From IMG/VR virus record IMGVR_UViG_3300011339_000401, positions 1 through 63,862 of that record: a DNA stretch of 63,862 nt; one strand, given 5' to 3'. Shown piece by piece: positions 22,468-27,150 of this stretch. The position numbers were made by a program, and so were the translations under genes. This DNA comes from a virus (Duplodnaviria; Caudoviricetes). The notes under the pieces are model-generated. The model was not told the DNA's origin and made no database searches. It saw only the letters and a list, made by a program, of their open reading frames with translations. Numbering within the stretch: the first letter of the stretch is position 1; every line of letters begins with the position of its first letter.

Positions 22468-22829
22468 TGATCGAAGACCTTGTCAGCCGGGTATTCTACG
22501 CCCGTAATCTCGCGCATTTTGAGCACTGGACCGTTAATGGCGTCGGTGCTTATGCGCGGCATATTGCGCTGAACGAGTTCTACGATAACGTCATCGACAA
22601 CATAGATAAGTTGGTTGAGGCGTATCAGGGTGCGTTTGAACTAATAGGCACAATCCCTAAAACCCCCACAAAAGCTTCGGAGATGCTTGCAGTATTAACC
22701 GAAGATGCAGCTTGGATCGAGAAGAACCATGAGGCTATTTGTCGGGGTAATCGGGCTGTTGCTAATTTGGTTGACGGTGTCACTGATACATACTTGACCA
22801 CAATCTACAAACTACGGAACCTTATGTAA
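22467..22829 (+). CDS. Ferritin/Dps-like four-helix protein (DUF5856-like)
   Basis: HFEHW...HIALNEFYD...DKLVEAYQG...YKL. Confidence 0.7.
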   Translation: MIEDLVSRVFYARNLAHFEHWTVNGVGAYARHIALNEFYDNVIDNIDKLVEAYQGAFELIGTIPKTPTKASEMLAVLTEDAAWIEKNHEAICRGNRAVANLVDGVTDTYLTTIYKLRNLM

Positions 22830-23626
22830 TGGCTCTCGTTCTCGCTAACCGCGTACAAGAAACGACAACTACTACTGGCACTGGCACGATTACGCTTGCT
22901 GGTGCTGTAGCTGGTTTCCAGTCGTTTTCGGTTATCGGGAATGCCAACACTACATATTACACGATAACTAGCGGTAACGCTTGGGAAGTCGGTATCGGCA
23001 CATATTCTACCTCTGGTACTACGCTAGCACGTACAACGATCCTGTCATCTAGTGCAGGTGGCGCGGCGATTACCCTTGCGGGCACCTCTACCGTGTTCTC
23101 TTCGTATCCGGCAGAGAAAGTTATTTCGAGTGACTACGGTACTCTTCCGGTCGCCAACGGCGGAACAGGCCAAACAACATACACCAACGGCCAGCTTCTG
23201 ATCGGTAACACCACCGGCAACACGCTGTCTAAAGCTACGCTGACTGCTGGCAACGGTATTGGTATTACGAATGGTACTGGGGCAATCACTATTGCTGCTA
23301 CATCGGCAATTAATGCGCTGGGTAACCAGACTGGGTCGATTAGCATCGACATATCAGCCAACGACACGTTCTCGCTGACCCTTACTGGTAATTTGACCAT
23401 TTCGTCGTTCACGAACCGACCTTCCAACCCCTACGGGTTCACCATCATCACCACACAGGACGCCACTGGCGGGCGTTCGATTACTTGGCCAACCGGTAGC
23501 AAGTATGCCGGGGGCGTGGCTCCGCCGATTACGACTACAGCGAACGCAGTGGATATTTGGAACGTGTACACCTACAACAGCGGTAGTTTTTACGTTGTGT
23601 CGTTGGCGGTTAAGGATTCTAAGTAA
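22829..23626 (+). CDS. Tail fibre protein
   Basis: NRVQETTTTTGTG anchor; GGTG fibre module; C-terminal QDATGGRSITWP...VD domain. Confidence 0.8.
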   Translation: MALVLANRVQETTTTTGTGTITLAGAVAGFQSFSVIGNANTTYYTITSGNAWEVGIGTYSTSGTTLARTTILSSSAGGAAITLAGTSTVFSSYPAEKVISSDYGTLPVANGGTGQTTYTNGQLLIGNTTGNTLSKATLTAGNGIGITNGTGAITIAATSAINALGNQTGSISIDISANDTFSLTLTGNLTISSFTNRPSNPYGFTIITTQDATGGRSITWPTGSKYAGGVAPPITTTANAVDIWNVYTYNSGSFYVVSLAVKDSK

Positions 23627-24456
23627 TGGCGGGTCCCGGTAAGCCCTCCTTCGGGCTGGAGAAAACTTGGCGTGCCTCGGGCACTGGCACTCAGACATTT
23701 AACGCGCCAAGTAATTACGGTATCCCTTATGGACGCTATCAGATCACTGTTGCTGGTCGTGGCGGCACGGGGACTGCTGCGATACCCGGCAATGCGTTCT
23801 TCAATCCATTCACTCCCGGTAATCCAACCTTCAATCCATTTACTCCCGGCAACCCGAACTACAATCCGTACGTTCCGGGCAATCCGTTCTCCAACCCATC
23901 CACTCCGGGCAATCCATTCTTCAACCCATACACTCCGGGCAATCCGTTCACCAATCCATCCACTCCGGGCAATCCAAACTTTAACCCCGGGACCTATAAC
24001 CCCGGGTCTTATAACTTTTTCTTTGATGATTATACCCCCGGTACTTTCACACCCGGCAACTTTGCTGGTAACAACCCCTCCACCCCGGGCAACTCCGGTG
24101 TTAACCCCGGCTCGGGCGGCAACTTTGCGGGTAATAACCCCTCCACCCCGGGCAACTCCGGTGTTAACCCCGGCTCTGGTGGTAATTTCGCTGGTAACAA
24201 CCCCGGCACCCCCGGCAATTTCGCCGGTAATAACCCCGGCTCTGGCGGTAATTTCGCCGGTAACAACCCTACTACCCCGGCTGTGCCGGGTAACGCCTCG
24301 ACTGCCTTGGGTGTCACAATGCCCGGGTCGAACACTGGTGGCACGCCTGCTCCGGCGACACCTGCAACACTGGTTAGTTACTATAGCTACCCAGACAACG
24401 CGACGTATCCCGTTTCTGTGCCATCAGGAGGCTATGTAACGATTACGTCCACATAA
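23626..24456 (+). CDS. Gly-rich fibre-tip-like protein with long Pro/Gly/Asn repeat insertion
   Basis: VAGRGGTG...GYVTI frame enclosing 14 units of 10-11 aa (23785-24294); TAATG-coupled to the fibre gene. Confidence 0.8.
   Translation: MAGPGKPSFGLEKTWRASGTGTQTFNAPSNYGIPYGRYQITVAGRGGTGTAAIPGNAFFNPFTPGNPTFNPFTPGNPNYNPYVPGNPFSNPSTPGNPFFNPYTPGNPFTNPSTPGNPNFNPGTYNPGSYNFFFDDYTPGTFTPGNFAGNNPSTPGNSGVNPGSGGNFAGNNPSTPGNSGVNPGSGGNFAGNNPGTPGNFAGNNPGSGGNFAGNNPTTPAVPGNASTALGVTMPGSNTGGTPAPATPATLVSYYSYPDNATYPVSVPSGGYVTITST
23785..24294 (+). repeat. Coding tandem repeats (30/33-nt units)
   Basis: PGNPxxNPxT-type x7, then PGNFAGNNP/NSGVNPGSG-type x7; near-exact 63-nt duplication around 24055-24180. Confidence 0.9.
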
Positions 24457-24467
24457 AGGACGATAAA

Positions 24468-25061: not shown

Positions 25062-25684
25062 TGATTATTTTTGATGCCGCGAAGACGGCCCTCTTACTTA
25101 ACCCTAAGACTGGCACACGCTCGGCTATGGAGTATTTTAAGCATCCCCAGTTCAGTGGCCACGTACGTAACGCCTATGGCGGGCATGTTAGTTACCAAGA
25201 AGCTGGCCGCGTACTCGGTGAAGTTGAATATGAATTTTTCTCCTTTTACCGCTGCCCTGTTGAGCGGTTTGTGTCCGCGTGCAACTTTGCGGTCAGTGAG
25301 TGGAACTATATCTGGGGTGATTTCCCCATCCGCCCTGAGACCATGGCTAAGGCCCAAGCGGAAATACAGGAACTCACTCTGGAGGACTTACTTGAAGTGC
25401 TCATCCGCGAGCAGCGTGGGCCTGTGCTGGCGTTAGCTAGGCCCCAGACTAGGTGGCTCGTGCCGGGAATTAAGCTGCTAGATTTTCGGGATTTTGAAGC
25501 CGAGTTGATACGTTTGGCAACGTCTTGGGGGTTCGAAGCCCCAGCCGAAGTGCCCCACACCAATGAAAGCATCCCTAAGTTTTGCGTTGATGACTTGTCG
25601 CCGGAGTTTATCGAGCGTATTAAACAATACTATATGCAGGACTACGAATTTTTCGCTAGCCGAGGCATAACATTCAACCGTTAG
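25061..25684 (+). CDS. Sulfotransferase (Sulfotransfer_2-like)
   Basis: 5'-PSB-like NPKTGTRS; 3'-PB-like RCPVERFVS; C-terminal YxxDYE. Confidence 0.8.
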   Translation: MIIFDAAKTALLLNPKTGTRSAMEYFKHPQFSGHVRNAYGGHVSYQEAGRVLGEVEYEFFSFYRCPVERFVSACNFAVSEWNYIWGDFPIRPETMAKAQAEIQELTLEDLLEVLIREQRGPVLALARPQTRWLVPGIKLLDFRDFEAELIRLATSWGFEAPAEVPHTNESIPKFCVDDLSPEFIERIKQYYMQDYEFFASRGITFNR

Positions 25685-25696
25685 GACAAGACTAAC

Positions 25697-26416
25697 ATGT
25701 TCAATATACTTAAGAAAACTCCGATTATGGAGTTTATGTGCCACCCTGACTATCGGGGGGTCATCCCAGAGCCAAAACCCGCAGCTAAGTTTATGCCGGA
25801 CTGGTTCAAAAAAGTCCCGATTAGTTTAAACGACCGTGACCAGTTTGGCGGTCGTAGCATGACCATAAAGCAGTGTATGCCGGTTATGGACATCATGTCG
25901 CTTGGATATGTTATCCCGCTTCAAGGCGACCTCGGGGTCGTTACCAATGCCGACAAAACCCAGATTAAGGTCACGAACCCGCCGGAGATTAAACTTGCGG
26001 AGTTCCACGACATCAAACAAGTCGGTGAGAAGACTGCTCCCGGTTTCCCTACCGCCCCGATCAAGTTCCTTAACCATTGGATTATCAAGACCGCCCCCGG
26101 ATGGTCTACCCTTGTGATGCCGTTGATGAACCGATTTGATGAAGACTTTACTTGTCTCTCGGGCCTAGTGGACACGGACCGTTATGTGAAGAATATCAAC
26201 TTCCCCGCTGCGTGGCATACCGCCAATTTCGATGACATTATTCCTGCTGGTACCCCTCTAGTGGTCGTAGTGCCGATTAAACGTAACACCTTCCCTAACA
26301 AGCCGATCATACGGGATATGACCACTGCGGAGTTTCAAAACGTCGAACTTATCCGTAAGCAGCAGCAGAGCCGCCGCAGCGTTTATACCAAAGAACTTAG
26401 GGAGCCACGTAAGTGA
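25697..26416 (+). CDS. Uncharacterised protein (DUF6065-like), paralog 1
   Basis: KQCMP..D....GYVIP, KFLNHW, SGLVDTD, IPAGTPL. Confidence 0.7.
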   Translation: MFNILKKTPIMEFMCHPDYRGVIPEPKPAAKFMPDWFKKVPISLNDRDQFGGRSMTIKQCMPVMDIMSLGYVIPLQGDLGVVTNADKTQIKVTNPPEIKLAEFHDIKQVGEKTAPGFPTAPIKFLNHWIIKTAPGWSTLVMPLMNRFDEDFTCLSGLVDTDRYVKNINFPAAWHTANFDDIIPAGTPLVVVVPIKRNTFPNKPIIRDMTTAEFQNVELIRKQQQSRRSVYTKELREPRK

Positions 26417-27150
26417 TGTGGCCCTTCAAGAAACGAGAGCTTGATATCGAGTTCGTGGACTCCACATACAAAGCGTTCATGCGCAACCCCGTCATGCGCG
26501 CATCAGACGTACAGCCCCGCTGTTACGCTCCCCAGAAAGAAAAGTTTGGTAAGGTGCGGTTCCCGCAGTGCCCCAGTATGATCGACTACGCCCGCATGGG
26601 GTACATAATTCCCGCATGGGCGGACATGCACATCCTCGCCAATAAAGCCGGAGTGTCCTACCGCCTCGGCGCTAAGCAGCGCGGCTCCCCGTTTGCCGCT
26701 GGGCGTCCAATGGACGCTAGTATTATCGAGGGGGTACTCGATCCCGAAGACGACGTACCACTTACGGTTATCCACTTTGGGTCGCCATGGAGTATCTTCG
26801 CTGCAAAGGGGGTATCCGCGCTTCTAATGCCCGCTACCTACCATTCAGACTTTCTTGACGATCTCATGATATTACCGGGCGCGGTGGATTACGATAAGTT
26901 CCACACGGTCGCCATGATCTGTGCGCCTCGCCGCGCCTGCAATATCCACATCCGTGCTGGGGACCCACTACTTCATGTCCTACCCTTCCGTACAGAGGAT
27001 ATCAAAGGGGGCTTTGGCCCCGCCAGCATTGAACAACATGGCGAGCTAGCAAACCAGATGTACACTGGAAATTCGCAAATTTACCGTAAGATGTATCAAA
27101 CCATAAAGAAATTCACGCTTTCACTTACTAACAAGACCCCGCCACCATAG
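26416..27150 (+). CDS. Uncharacterised protein (DUF6065-like), paralog 2
   Basis: QCPS..D....GYIIP, SPW, PGAVDYD, IRAGDPL; TGATG coupling. Confidence 0.7.
   Translation: MWPFKKRELDIEFVDSTYKAFMRNPVMRASDVQPRCYAPQKEKFGKVRFPQCPSMIDYARMGYIIPAWADMHILANKAGVSYRLGAKQRGSPFAAGRPMDASIIEGVLDPEDDVPLTVIHFGSPWSIFAAKGVSALLMPATYHSDFLDDLMILPGAVDYDKFHTVAMICAPRRACNIHIRAGDPLLHVLPFRTEDIKGGFGPASIEQHGELANQMYTGNSQIYRKMYQTIKKFTLSLTNKTPPP

What the first reader, a model, noticed from the sequence alone, without database searches (positions are those of the whole stretch)
22829..27150. Candidate virion post-translational modification cassette: Pro-rich fibre protein, prolyl hydroxylase, sulfotransferase and two paralogous unknowns
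Seen: in the middle of the tail module, a fibre gene is TAATG-coupled to a Pro/Gly/Asn repeat protein. It is followed with gaps of 12 nt or less by a 2OG-Fe(II) dioxygenase (HWD...H...RxS), a PAPS-motif sulfotransferase and two mutually similar DUF6065-like genes. Known: P4H-type dioxygenases hydroxylate X-Pro-Gly or Asn residues, and sulfotransferases modify hydroxyl groups. Inference: this is a substrate-plus-tailoring-enzyme locus, laid out like a RiPP cluster, that hydroxylates and then sulfates (or primes for glycosylation) the repeat stalk of a receptor-binding fibre. That would make these enzymes morphogenesis factors rather than host-directed metabolic genes.
Basis: partly seen in the sequence, partly recalled or inferred. 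Interest (0 to 1): 0.88.

Follow-up and report, generated by a model that had tools for sequence, protein, structure and literature searches.

The report
Mobile tail-fibre-tip protein modification gene module
A phage tail-fibre gene is followed by a repeat-rich tip protein and a set of enzymes that travel with it between unrelated phages, which suggests the enzymes chemically decorate the fibre tip rather than reprogram the host.

Summary
All six ORFs, their TAATG/ATGA couplings, the gaps of 12 nt or less and the motifs are present.

Comparative genomics supports the "substrate plus tailoring enzymes" idea.
- Starting from the DUF6065 gene E, 79 of 79 IMG/VR loci with room (26 of 26 clusters) have the 2OG oxygenase next to E. 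70 of 76 have a B-type repeat protein directly upstream.
- Starting from B, 46 of 47 loci with room have C and E.
- In 24 of 26 clusters no other window late gene is shared. Some hosts of the module are T4-like myoviruses. It therefore moves as a unit.

New facts:
- Most relatives end the module with a PF11397/GT60 GlcNAc-transferase, the family of the Skp1 hydroxyproline transferase. The window's lineage has the sulfotransferase instead.
- DUF6065 has a dUTPase-like fold.
- B is a small beta-sandwich with a hypervariable repeat insert. Its universal motif is [Y/F]-N, not Pro-Gly.

The chemistry (which residue is hydroxylated, whether it is sulfated) remains unproven. Interest 0.74.

The parts
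22829..23626 (+). Gene A: tail fibre protein, 265 aa. Its last ~110 residues (23294-23623) form a conserved C-terminal 'Ac' domain that always precedes a B-type gene.
   Evidence: PHROG tail-fibre families. 131 nt are 78% identical to the Synechococcus phage S-CBS1 fibre gene. The Ac alignment A3 has 19 rows and mean column identity 56%. Ac sits at the C-terminus of fibre proteins of 175 to about 1880 aa in related loci.
23626..24456 (+). Gene B: 276-aa Gly/Pro/Asn-rich repeat protein, the proposed substrate or fibre-tip protein. The conserved N-terminal (~17-58) and C-terminal (~213-276) parts are modelled as beta strands. The middle is a hypervariable repeat insert.
   Evidence: TAATG overlap with A. 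Composition. AF2 model: pLDDT 84-95 in the terminal strand blocks and 30-38 in residues 59-212. In alignment A2 the ends are conserved and the middle varies, with total length 215-884 aa in relatives.
23798..23981 (+). Repeat array 1 inside B: 30-nt (10-aa) units, consensus x-N-P-x-T-P-G-N-P-x.
   Evidence: TRF: period 30, 6.1 copies, 77% matches. Translation.
24064..24280 (+). Repeat array 2 inside B: 63-nt (21-aa) units, GNFAGNNPSTPGNSGVNPGSG-like.
   Evidence: TRF: period 63, 3.4 copies, 83% matches.
24468..25061 (+). Gene C: 2OG-Fe(II) oxygenase of the prolyl-4-hydroxylase (P4Hc/PF13640) family, 197 aa.
   Evidence: Pfam 3.5e-18. H113 and D115 are invariant; H174 and R184 are at least 90% conserved in 23 homologues. 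Profile against PDB: PKHD-type hydroxylases 3e-16, PBCV-1 P4H 1.6e-13, Chlamydomonas P4H 1e-9, B. anthracis P4H 4.5e-9, PhyA-type 6t8m 8.8e-5.
25061..25684 (+). Gene D: Sulfotransfer_2-family enzyme, 207 aa. It is a lineage-variable accessory of the module.
   Evidence: Pfam above the gathering cut-off. Conserved PK(T/N)G and R-x7-S. Atlas neighbours. Present in 10 of 57 B-anchored loci, in the same C-D-E-F order in L176 (locus ends inside D), L177-L179 and L183.
25697..26416 (+). Gene E: DUF6065 protein with a dUTPase-like fold, 239 aa. It is the most conserved gene of the module.
   Evidence: Pfam and PHROG. AF2 pLDDT 88.6. VIA-align: best Z 10.8, rmsd 3.4, 120 aligned to dUTPase 3h6x; 20 of the top 22 rows are dUTPases or dCTP deaminases and the other two are herpesvirus proteins. 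Foldseek E 3e-4. 50-70% identical to the window across all 25 clusters other than the close relative L016.
26413..27150 (+). Gene F: divergent DUF6065 paralogue, 245 aa, overlapping E by 4 nt.
   Evidence: phrog_7084 at 1.4e-18. BLASTP against E, E 2e-10. Follows E in 76 of 78 loci. It keeps C60, D65, S137, V158 and D159 but lacks several residues that are conserved in the E-type rows of A1.

Best explanation
The stretch is one copy of a conserved, horizontally mobile 'fibre-tip maturation module'. The full module reads as follows:
1. A conserved C-terminal adaptor domain (Ac) at the end of an otherwise variable tail-fibre protein.
2. B, a small beta-sandwich protein whose two ends fold together and carry a hypervariable array of short [Y/F]-N / Pro-Gly repeats.
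3. C, a prolyl-4-hydroxylase-family 2OG-Fe(II) oxygenase.
4. E and F, a pair of DUF6065 proteins with a dUTPase-like fold. E is conserved and enzyme-like; F is degenerate.
5. A final transferase. Most lineages have a GT60 GlcNAc-transferase. The window's lineage has a PAPS-type sulfotransferase (D) inserted between C and E and has no GT60.

Most likely mechanism (inferred): during late infection C hydroxylates side chains in the repeat insert of B, or possibly of fibre A. The new hydroxyl groups are then capped in the cytoplasm, by O-GlcNAc in most phages and by sulfate in this one. This changes the stiffness, solubility, charge or receptor specificity of the fibre tip. E/F is an obligatory but unexplained partner. 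Because of its uracil-nucleotide-type fold, I guess that it handles the nucleotide part of a donor or by-product, or that it presents B to C.

Shown: gene content, motifs, folds, synteny and mobility. Inferred: that B is the substrate, which residue is modified, the order of steps, and the role of E/F.
For: (1) Linkage from the enzyme side. The alignment of E/F found 257 relatives in IMG/VR. The best 80 were kept; they fall into 26 clusters at 90% E identity.
- C lies next to E in 79 of 79 loci with room (26 of 26 clusters).
- F lies after E in 76 of 78.
- A B-type ORF lies directly upstream in 70 of 76 (23 of 25 clusters).
- GT60 lies directly after F in 63 of 76, and 7 more loci have GT60 just upstream of B.

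(2) Linkage from the substrate side. The B alignment found 57 loci. 46 of 47 with room carry C and E.

(3) Mobility. Of 36 window late genes, only A, B, C, D, E and F have tblastn hits in the +/-7 kb loci of 24 of 26 clusters. Flanks of L026 and L066 carry T4 gp15, a T4-type terminase and gp5. The window carries SU10-adaptor genes.

(4) Enzyme families act on proteins. All characterised PDB hits of the C profile with E <= 1e-4 are protein prolyl hydroxylases. The catalytic H-x-D...H and R-x-S are conserved. GT60's characterised members transfer GlcNAc to hydroxyproline of Skp1 or to polypeptide Thr, and Gnt1 needs prior PhyA hydroxylation (PMC6939170, passages read).

(5) The triad of PF13640, DUF6065 and PF11397 recurs at about 35% identity in a different cassette, after Gly-rich fibre-like ORFs (L125).

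(6) D recurs with B in several lineages. In L187 it is the only module enzyme present.

(7) Eight of the 150 listed DUF6065 representatives are tandem two-domain fusions of 451-500 aa. This fits E and F working as a pair.

(8) Strain variation. Contigs of three DNA runs from three studies differ from the window at 4.4-8.6% of letters in 23303-24102 (the end of A and the first half of B), but at 0.5-2.5% in 24147-27130 (C to F). This is as expected for an exposed host-recognition part followed by conserved enzymes.

(9) Tight coupling with the fibre gene, through TAATG and ATGA overlaps.
Against: There is no biochemical or proteomic evidence.

B is not shown to be in the virion, and it has no relative in 50,697 cultured phage records.

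B's fold matches are weak: best Z 5.8, and BFVD E >= 0.02.

The repeat motif common to all lineages is [Y/F]-N. Pro-Gly is not enriched in six lineages, and one B has 4% Pro. A prolyl target is therefore uncertain.

C's closest solved relatives are PKHD-type hydroxylases (PiuC, Sbal_3634), whose substrates I could not establish.

DUF6065 has a nucleotide-enzyme fold. In a sample of 80 more distant members, 39 stand alone by my HMMs and none has a B-type neighbour. Singletons lie next to ribonucleotide reductase in Halorubrum virus HRTV-16 and cyanophage S-RIM4, and between a primase-like and a polymerase-like ORF in L114 (the names of the L114 ORFs are my own reading, no family search was run on them).

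The window lacks GT60, so the glycosylation analogy applies to relatives, not to this phage.

The family HMMs used for the counts were built from the cassette itself. The 80 loci are the best-scoring 80 of 257, and 37 of them fall in one cluster.
Confidence: 0.55

Rival explanations
1. The enzymes form a nucleotide, nucleotide-sugar or DNA-modification pathway (oxygenase + dUTPase-fold proteins + glycosyl- or sulfo-transferase). The pathway merely rides next to the fibre genes, and B is an ordinary fibre-tip protein that is not modified.
For: E has a dUTPase or dCTP-deaminase fold (Z 10.8; 20 of the top 22 rows are of that superfamily) and a motif-III-like V-D-x-D-x-[Y/F] (the motif name is recalled). 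Lone DUF6065 genes sit beside ribonucleotide reductase or replication genes. Oxygenase-plus-glycosyltransferase pairs are known from phage DNA hypermodification (recalled, not checked here).
Against: C belongs to the protein-hydroxylase P4H family, not to TET/JBP: the Tet-like hit has E 0.65 against 1e-9 to 1e-16 for P4H and PKHD enzymes. GT60's characterised members are polypeptide transferases. The block is glued to Ac-B in 23 of 25 clusters and moves with it between myovirus-like and podovirus-like backbones. E has no sequence match to any PDB dUTPase (0 hits at E <= 10), and I saw no C-terminal P-loop-like motif V (recalled definition).
Confidence: 0.15
2. E and F (and perhaps B) are fibre assembly factors or structural tip parts, not enzymes. 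A trimeric jelly-roll such as the dUTPase fold could serve as a chaperone or knob. C alone would be catalytic, with an unrelated target.
For: Genes placed right after a fibre gene are often chaperones or adhesins (general knowledge, for example T4 gp38, recalled). F has lost residues that are conserved in E. Herpesvirus proteins reuse the dUTPase fold without catalysis (8qdo Z 7.8 and 7byf Z 7.2).
Against: E is the most conserved gene of the module, at 50-70% identity where A is 35-65% and B's repeat insert is not alignable. Receptor-binding parts usually vary, so this is atypical. Polar residues C60, D65, S137 and D159 are invariant across both paralogues. Family members also occur far from fibre genes.
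Confidence: 0.15
3. The cassette is a host-directed auxiliary (moron/AMG) island. It would have been inserted at a permissive site between fibre and lysis genes, and would modify host proteins or envelope components during infection.
For: PHROGs files the 2OG oxygenase and the sulfotransferase-like family under 'moron, auxiliary metabolic gene and host takeover'. Viral P4H genes are usually discussed as AMGs of 'cryptic' use (PMC9301287, passages read). An endolysin follows directly.
Against: An island at a permissive site would not keep the same upstream neighbour in unrelated genomes. Yet C-E-F is next to Ac-B in 70 of 76 loci and in 46 of 47. The genes are translationally coupled to the fibre genes.
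Confidence: 0.1

Closest known systems
Skp1 hydroxyproline glycosylation pathway of Dictyostelium and Toxoplasma (PhyA prolyl 4-hydroxylase, then Gnt1, a GT60 alpha-GlcNAc-transferase)
   Same: Cytoplasmic P4H-family oxygenase plus a PF11397/GT60 transferase. In most relatives of this module the two are encoded in one block. Gnt1 acts only after hydroxylation (PMC6939170).
   Different: The target here would be a repeat-rich phage fibre-tip protein, not Skp1. Two dUTPase-fold proteins are obligatory extras. The window itself has no GT60 but has a sulfotransferase. The C profile matches the PhyA-type entry 6t8m only at 8.8e-5.
Chlorovirus PBCV-1 prolyl 4-hydroxylase (PDB 5c5t), which acts on Pro-rich viral repeat peptides
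   Same: A virus-encoded P4H-family enzyme in a virus that also encodes Pro-rich repeat proteins. The C-family profile hits 5c5t at 1.6e-13. The work is cited in PMC9301287 (reference list seen); the original paper was not read.
   Different: That is a virus of eukaryotic algae. As far as I recall, no substrate gene is physically coupled to the enzyme, and there is no GT60, sulfotransferase or DUF6065 partner.
Mycobacteriophage virion glycosylation by phage-encoded glycosyltransferases (Freeman et al. 2023; seen only as a reference in PMC12801897)
   Same: Phage-encoded enzymes modify the phage's own virion proteins after translation.
   Different: Those are direct O-glycosylations of capsid and tail-tube proteins (recalled). 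No oxygenase step, sulfotransferase, dUTPase-fold proteins or fibre-tip repeat substrate is involved.
T-even gp38-type fibre-tip adhesins with glycine-rich motifs separating hypervariable segments (recalled, not tested)
   Same: A separate gene directly after the distal fibre gene. A conserved scaffold carries hypervariable, Gly-rich segments. The preceding fibre protein has a conserved docking end (Ac domain).
   Different: No sequence or significant fold match was found. gp38 has no dedicated modifying enzymes.
Trimeric dUTPase / dCTP deaminase superfamily
   Same: The fold of E: Z 10.8 to 3h6x (rmsd 3.4, 120 aligned) and Foldseek E 3e-4. A V-D-x-D-x-Y stretch resembles dUTPase motif III (recalled).
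   Different: About 100 residues longer. No sequence-level match. Occurs as a divergent pair or a tandem fusion. In this subfamily it is embedded in a fibre module.

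Membership tests
2OG-Fe(II) oxygenase, P4Hc / PF13640 (prolyl-4-hydroxylase-type) | Pfam model score above the gathering cut-off | tested here: met
   66.8 bits against 27
2OG-Fe(II) oxygenase, P4Hc / PF13640 (prolyl-4-hydroxylase-type) | H-x-D...H iron triad and R/K-x-S 2-oxoglutarate site | tested here: met
   H113-W-D115, H174, R184-R-S186. H113 and D115 are invariant; H174 and R184 are at least 90% conserved in 23 homologues.
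2OG-Fe(II) oxygenase, P4Hc / PF13640 (prolyl-4-hydroxylase-type) | Hydroxylates peptidyl proline | not testable with these tools
   The nearest characterised PDB relatives are prolyl hydroxylases. The top hits, however, are PKHD-type hydroxylases of unknown substrate, and Pro is not a constant feature of B relatives.
Sulfotransfer_2 (PF03567), PAPS-dependent sulfotransferase | Pfam model score above the gathering cut-off | tested here: met
   24.6 bits against 22, E 3.2e-5. 26 of 30 Atlas neighbours are PF03567 clusters.
Sulfotransfer_2 (PF03567), PAPS-dependent sulfotransferase | 5'-phosphosulfate loop PKxG(T/S) and 3'-phosphate motif R-x7-S (motif definitions recalled) | tested here: met
   P15-K-T-G-T and R64...S72. 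P15, K16, G18, R64, P66 and S72 are invariant in 6 of 6 homologues.
Sulfotransfer_2 (PF03567), PAPS-dependent sulfotransferase | Sulfotransferase fold and activity | not tested
DUF6065 (PF19541) | Pfam model score above the gathering cut-off | tested here: met
   E: 30.9 bits against 26.6. F has no Pfam hit at E <= 0.1. F joins through phrog_7084 at 1.4e-18 and BLASTP against E at 2e-10.
dUTPase / dCTP deaminase superfamily | Jelly-roll dUTPase fold | tested here: met
   Model pLDDT 88.6. Z 10.8, 10.6, 10.3 and so on; 20 of the top 22 rows are of this superfamily.
dUTPase / dCTP deaminase superfamily | Five conserved sequence motifs including the C-terminal P-loop-like motif V (recalled) | tested here: inconclusive
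   Only a motif-III-like VDTDRY (E) and VDYDKF (F) were seen. The profile against PDB gave 0 hits at E <= 10.
Skp1-type P4H to GT60 hydroxyproline glycosylation | A GT60 (PF11397) transferase encoded together with the hydroxylase | tested here: not met
   No PF11397 match in the whole 63,862-bp genome at E <= 1. It is met in relatives: 63 of 76 loci.
Collagen-like (Gly-X-Y)n fibre protein | Gly at every third residue over long runs | tested here: not met
   B's repeats have periods of 10 and 21 residues (translation). True GPQ-type collagen repeats occur only in neighbouring fibre proteins of L078 and L091.
RiPP biosynthetic cluster | Short precursor peptide with a leader, plus a protease or exporter | tested here: not met
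   B is 276 aa with folded conserved ends. Relatives are 215-884 aa. No protease or transporter family was found in the six genes. The similarity is one of layout only.

The most novel reading that the evidence does not exclude
Tailed phages of several morphotypes carry a portable enzyme kit with three parts: a P4H-type oxygenase, a new dUTPase-fold heterodimer that acts in protein modification, and an exchangeable capping transferase. The kit would install hydroxyl-linked GlcNAc, or in this phage sulfate, on hypervariable [Y/F]-N / Pro-Gly repeats of a fibre-tip adhesin. That would be a bacterial-virus counterpart of eukaryotic hydroxyproline glycosylation. It would also give many of the abundant 'cryptic' viral 2OG oxygenase genes a morphogenetic role instead of a metabolic one. 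O-sulfated hydroxy-amino acids on a virion would be a new kind of phage surface chemistry.
Probability: 0.3. Interest if true: 0.9.

Novelty: new variant of a known kind. Interest (0 to 1): 0.74.

Why it matters
Genes for 2OG-Fe(II)/P4H-type oxygenases are among the commonest 'auxiliary' genes in aquatic phages. A 2022 survey still calls their use 'cryptic' (PMC9301287, passage read).

This module names a concrete candidate substrate, encoded next door and travelling with the enzymes. That turns the question into a simple co-expression and mass-spectrometry experiment.

If the reading is confirmed:
- Phage host-recognition proteins would be shown to be chemically tailored by hydroxylation plus GlcNAc or sulfate. 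This bears on host-range prediction from sequence, on fibre engineering and on how fibres evade or exploit host surface chemistry.
- A function would be assigned to DUF6065, a family with 3,724 clusters at 50% identity.
- The P4H-to-GT60 logic, so far known from protist Skp1, would be extended to bacterial viruses.

Tried and rejected
Complex prediction. Three copies of the Ac domain of A plus one B were submitted. The verdict was 'no answer' (score 0.01 against a mark of 0.32). It is neither for nor against binding.

Fold of B. VIA-align gave best Z 5.8 (HutD, CD109, lambda tail tip). BFVD by Foldseek gave best E 0.02, with many 'glycine-rich domain-containing protein' and cyanophage 'virion structural protein' rows. 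None is significant, so B is not filed with them.

Cultured phages. tblastn of B and of D found nothing. blastn of the whole stretch found only 131 nt of the S-CBS1 fibre gene.

PDB by sequence. D gave no meaningful hit. The E/F profile gave 0 hits.

NCBIfam. There was nothing for A, B, D, E or F. C matched only below the cut-offs, to PRK05467 / YbiX-type models.

Atlas search for E with PF19541 excluded gave no usable hit.

Literature. There were 0 papers with 'DUF6065' and 0 with PiuC + hydroxylase + 2-oxoglutarate. Searches on cyanophage / prolyl 4-hydroxylase / tail fiber, hydroxyproline / bacteriophage / prolyl hydroxylase / virion, Skp1 / Gnt1 / GT60 / phage and GT60 / virus / hydroxyproline gave no paper describing this module. 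I saw listings only, except for the passages cited. Subscription journals are not covered and supplements were closed.

Rejected idea: a cupin or second oxygenase fold for DUF6065. Cupins scored only Z about 3.

Rejected idea: B is collagen-like. The repeat periods are 10 and 21 residues, not 3.

The 255-aa ORF at 23672-24439 and the minus-strand ORFs inside B are treated as shadows of the repeat composition.

RNA. One metatranscriptome run (X20) held 5% of the words. It laid a single 264-nt contig on 24191-24454 plus short pieces on A. This does not show transcription, because DNA can be present in such libraries. The parts without cover say nothing.

Promoter and terminator scan: at chance level.

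Full report
WHAT IS THERE

The window is a complete 63,862-bp IMG/VR virus record.
- A: fibre protein, 265 aa.
- B: repeat protein, 276 aa.
- C: 2OG oxygenase, 197 aa.
- D: sulfotransferase-like, 207 aa.
- E and F: DUF6065 paralogues, 239 and 245 aa.

A/B and C/D share TAATG. E/F overlap by 4 nt. The other two gaps are 11 and 12 nt.

Family assignments hold.
- A matches PHROG tail-fibre families.
- C matches PF13640 at 3.5e-18, with H113-x-D115, H174 and R184-x-S186.
- D passes the Sulfotransfer_2 gathering score (24.6 against 22). It carries a PK(T)G loop and an R-x7-S motif that are invariant in all six aligned homologues. 26 of its 30 nearest named Atlas clusters are Sulfotransfer_2.
- E passes PF19541.
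- F joins E through phrog_7084 (1.4e-18) and BLASTP (26% identity, E 2e-10).

B is 17.8% Gly, 16.7% Pro and 15.2% Asn, with 10-residue and 21-residue tandem repeats.

SU10-adaptor-like genes lie upstream. An amidase endolysin and a Peptidase_S74 fibre lie downstream.

IS THE NEIGHBOURHOOD MEANINGFUL?

Starting from the enzyme. An alignment of E and F (A1) found 257 relatives in IMG/VR. The best 80 loci were kept; all are at least 50% identical to E. They form 26 clusters at 90% E identity, one of which holds 37 loci. I scored them with HMMs that I built from the window and the first relatives. Results are:
- The 2OG oxygenase lies next to E in 79 of 79 loci with room (26 of 26 clusters).
- F follows E in 76 of 78 (misses: L081, L087).
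- A B-type ORF lies directly upstream of C, or of D-C, in 70 of 76 (23 of 25 clusters).
- Five of the six misses (L077-L080, L083) have an HMM-negative but Asn/Gly/Pro-rich ORF of 399-884 aa in that place. In the sixth (L081), B lies just downstream of E.

Starting from the substrate. An alignment of B (A2) found 57 loci. 53 of them have a B HMM hit. 46 of the 47 with room carry both C and E. The one miss (L187) carries only a D-like gene.

Mobility. Of 36 late genes of the window, only A, B, C, D, E and F find tblastn partners in the +/-7 kb loci of 24 of 26 clusters. The exceptions are the close relative L016 and L074, which also shares the S74 fibre. Flanks of L026 and L066 encode T4 gp15, a T4-type terminase and gp5. 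The window has SU10-type adaptors. The block therefore sits in unrelated backbones.

What travels with the block is not the whole fibre gene but its last ~110 residues. This 'Ac' domain has mean column identity 56% over 19 rows. It ends fibre proteins of 175 to about 1880 aa.

NEW COMPONENTS

In most relatives, F is followed by a 315-340-aa protein that matches PF11397 'GlcNAc' at 1e-24 to 3e-27.
- It lies directly after F in 63 of 76 loci (17 of 24 clusters).
- It lies just upstream of B in 7 further loci.

PF11397 corresponds to CAZy GT60. Its characterised members are the Skp1 hydroxyproline alpha-GlcNAc-transferase Gnt1, which acts only after the prolyl hydroxylase PhyA, and a polypeptide Thr GlcNAc-transferase (PMC6939170, passages read).

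The window genome has no PF11397 match at all. It has D instead. Among B-anchored loci with room after F, the split is: 35 with GT60 only, 3 with D only, 2 with both and 4 with neither. D is thus a lineage-variable alternative or addition. It is found in the window's C-D-E-F order on contigs of 77 and 159 kb (L179, L183).

Other accessories seen in relatives:
- a methyltransferase fused to GT60 (L014);
- a Sulfotransfer_1/3-like gene (L009);
- a fatty-acid-desaturase-like gene and a DUF6445 gene (L042).

WHAT THE PROTEINS LOOK LIKE

E models well (pLDDT 88.6) and has a dUTPase-like fold.
- VIA-align gives Z 10.8 (rmsd 3.4, 120 aligned) to 3h6x. 20 of the top 22 rows are dUTPases or dCTP deaminases, and the other two are herpesvirus proteins that reuse the fold.
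- Foldseek gives E 3e-4.
- There is no sequence-level match to PDB.
- E and F share an invariant V-D within VDTDRY / VDYDKF, which resembles dUTPase motif III (recalled).
- F lacks several residues that are conserved in the E-type rows.

The family is large: 3,724 clusters at 50% identity with E <= 1e-3. Eight of the 150 listed representatives are tandem two-domain fusions. That fits E and F acting as a pair.

B models as two confident strand blocks at the ends (residues about 17-58 and 213-276, pLDDT 84-95), modelled here as one beta-sandwich. The repeats between them are unmodelled (pLDDT 30-38). In relatives only these ends align, and the insert ranges widely in length and sequence.

A profile of 23 C homologues hits the following:
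- PKHD-type hydroxylases, 3e-16;
- the PBCV-1 prolyl 4-hydroxylase, 1.6e-13;
- Chlamydomonas P4H, 1e-9, and Bacillus anthracis P4H, 4.5e-9;
- P3H1;
- a PhyA-type entry, 8.8e-5.

POINTS AGAINST THE SIMPLE 'PROLYL HYDROXYLATION THEN SULFATION' STORY

The repeat element common to all B relatives is [S/T/A/N]-[Y/F]-N.
- Pro-Gly is enriched in the window (21 against 8.2 expected) and in many others.
- It is at expectation in L065, L074, L082, L088, L091 and L094.
- The B of L074 has 4% Pro while keeping C, D, E, F and GT60.
The modified residue could therefore be Pro, Asn or something else. GT60 could also act directly on Thr.

The wider DUF6065 family is not tied to fibres. In a second sample of 80 loci around more distant members (31-39% identical to the query), searches give:
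- 26 have a PF13640-like gene within 3 kb;
- 6 have GT60;
- 35 have two or more DUF6065 genes;
- none has a B-type gene;
- 39 are lone by my HMMs.

Lone copies sit next to ribonucleotide reductase in Halorubrum virus HRTV-16 and cyanophage S-RIM4. In L114 a lone copy sits between replication genes (the names of those ORFs are my own reading, no family search was run on them).

One distant cassette does repeat the triad. L125 has two PF13640 genes, an FkbM methyltransferase, two DUF6065 genes, PF11397 and a ferredoxin, after Gly-rich fibre-like ORFs.

POPULATION DATA

The stretch occurs in freshwater and riverine metagenome runs. Contigs of three DNA runs from three studies, none flagged as the possible source, were laid on the window.
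- They differ at 69 of 800, 27 of 608 and 32 of 491 letters across 23303-24102 (the end of A and the first half of B).
- A 52-57-nt piece of A (from 23245/23250 to 23303) is replaced by 67-72 other letters.
- They differ at only 19 of 2984, 43 of 2984, 8 of 1619 and 34 of 1371 letters across C to F.
- Assemblies break up inside the B repeats.
This is the pattern of a fast-evolving exposed part followed by conserved enzymes.

READING

The best-supported explanation (0.55) is that the enzymes mature or modify the fibre-tip protein encoded beside them. C hydroxylates. A transferase caps: GT60 in most phages, the sulfotransferase here. E/F is an unexplained obligatory partner.

Rivals:
- a nucleotide-directed pathway riding with the fibre genes (0.15);
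- E/F as non-catalytic assembly or structural parts (0.15);
- a host-directed auxiliary island (0.10).

What is shown: gene content, motifs, folds, linkage and mobility. What is inferred: the substrate, the residue, the order of steps and the role of E/F.

COMPARISON AND NOVELTY

The logic resembles the protist Skp1 PhyA-to-Gnt1 pathway and the chlorovirus P4H. It also resembles phage virion glycosylation in mycobacteriophages (seen only as a citation). I found no paper describing this module, DUF6065, or a phage P4H-GT60 pair. The library omits most subscription journals and supplements were closed.

A 2022 survey states that how viruses use P4H 'remains cryptic' (PMC9301287). One cyanomyovirus study detected a 2OG 'ofd1'-type oxygenase in a virion proteome (PMC12801897, section 7 read).

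I rate the finding a new variant of a known kind, with interest 0.74. The scan had already noted E/F as tandem paralogues on this same DNA (e1-6282361).

Noticed in passing
L078:8935-14586 and L091:10307-14698: Very long fibre proteins (1883 and 1464 aa) start with true collagen-like GPQGPQ repeats, hit my Ac-domain HMM and lie right after the C-E-F(-GT60) block. They are a second kind of possible P4H substrate next to the module.
   Followed up: no
window 27854-28582 (+), with shadow ORF 27808-28791 (-): A 242-aa Thr/Gly/Ser/Val-rich protein is built of TGVSATGSIGTV-like repeats, directly before the S74 fibre. It has no family hit. The 327-aa minus-strand ORF over it looks like a repeat shadow.
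   Followed up: no
window 27217-27815: An Amidase_2 endolysin (6.8e-16), and an overlapping 65-aa ORF whose hydrophobic stretch suggests a holin (my reading, not searched), sit between two fibre-gene groups. Lysis genes are thus embedded in the tail module.
   Followed up: partly
window 22467-22829: A DUF5856 / phrog_858 protein ('starvation-inducible transcriptional regulator', Dps-like by my recall) is encoded directly before fibre gene A and shares ATGA with it.
   Followed up: no
window 14131-14865, 53401-54159, 54491-55090: Two GT-A-type glycosyltransferase paralogues have weak Pfam hits to Glyco_transf_21, Anp1 and GT2. There is also a Methyltransf_24 enzyme. The first glycosyltransferase is coupled to an 878-aa virion-like protein. 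They could supply sugars that D sulfates, since the genome lacks GT60.
   Followed up: partly
P0137, P0140, P0167, P0188, P0230, P0231, P0248, P0251: These are tandem fusions of two DUF6065 domains in single proteins of 451-500 aa.
   Followed up: partly
L125:3786-9490 (similar in L101, L148): A distant cassette holds two PF13640 oxygenases, an FkbM methyltransferase, two or three DUF6065 genes, unknown genes, PF11397 and a 4Fe-4S ferredoxin, downstream of Gly-rich fibre-like ORFs.
   Followed up: partly
L001 (Halorubrum virus HRTV-16) and L015 (cyanophage S-RIM4): Lone DUF6065 genes lie next to ribonucleotide reductase genes in an archaeal virus and in a cyanomyovirus. 46 of the 56 cultured-virus records with a match to E are Halorubrum or Haloarcula viruses.
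   Followed up: partly
window 23245-23303: In contigs of three other metagenome runs this piece of fibre gene A is replaced by 67-72 unrelated letters. The following 500-800 nt differ by 4-9%, against 0.5-2.5% in the enzyme genes.
   Followed up: partly
L042:9479-13807: Downstream of GT60 in the largest cluster lie a P-loop-like 177-aa ORF, a fatty-acid-desaturase-like membrane protein (4.5e-8), a sulfotransferase-like 234-aa ORF and, on the other strand, a DUF6445 protein that also hits my 2OG HMM.
   Followed up: partly
runs X5-X10: Small runs labelled with a single coded organism hold 98-99% of the stretch's words. They may point to a culture in which the phage or a near twin can be studied. 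I did not try to identify it.
   Followed up: no
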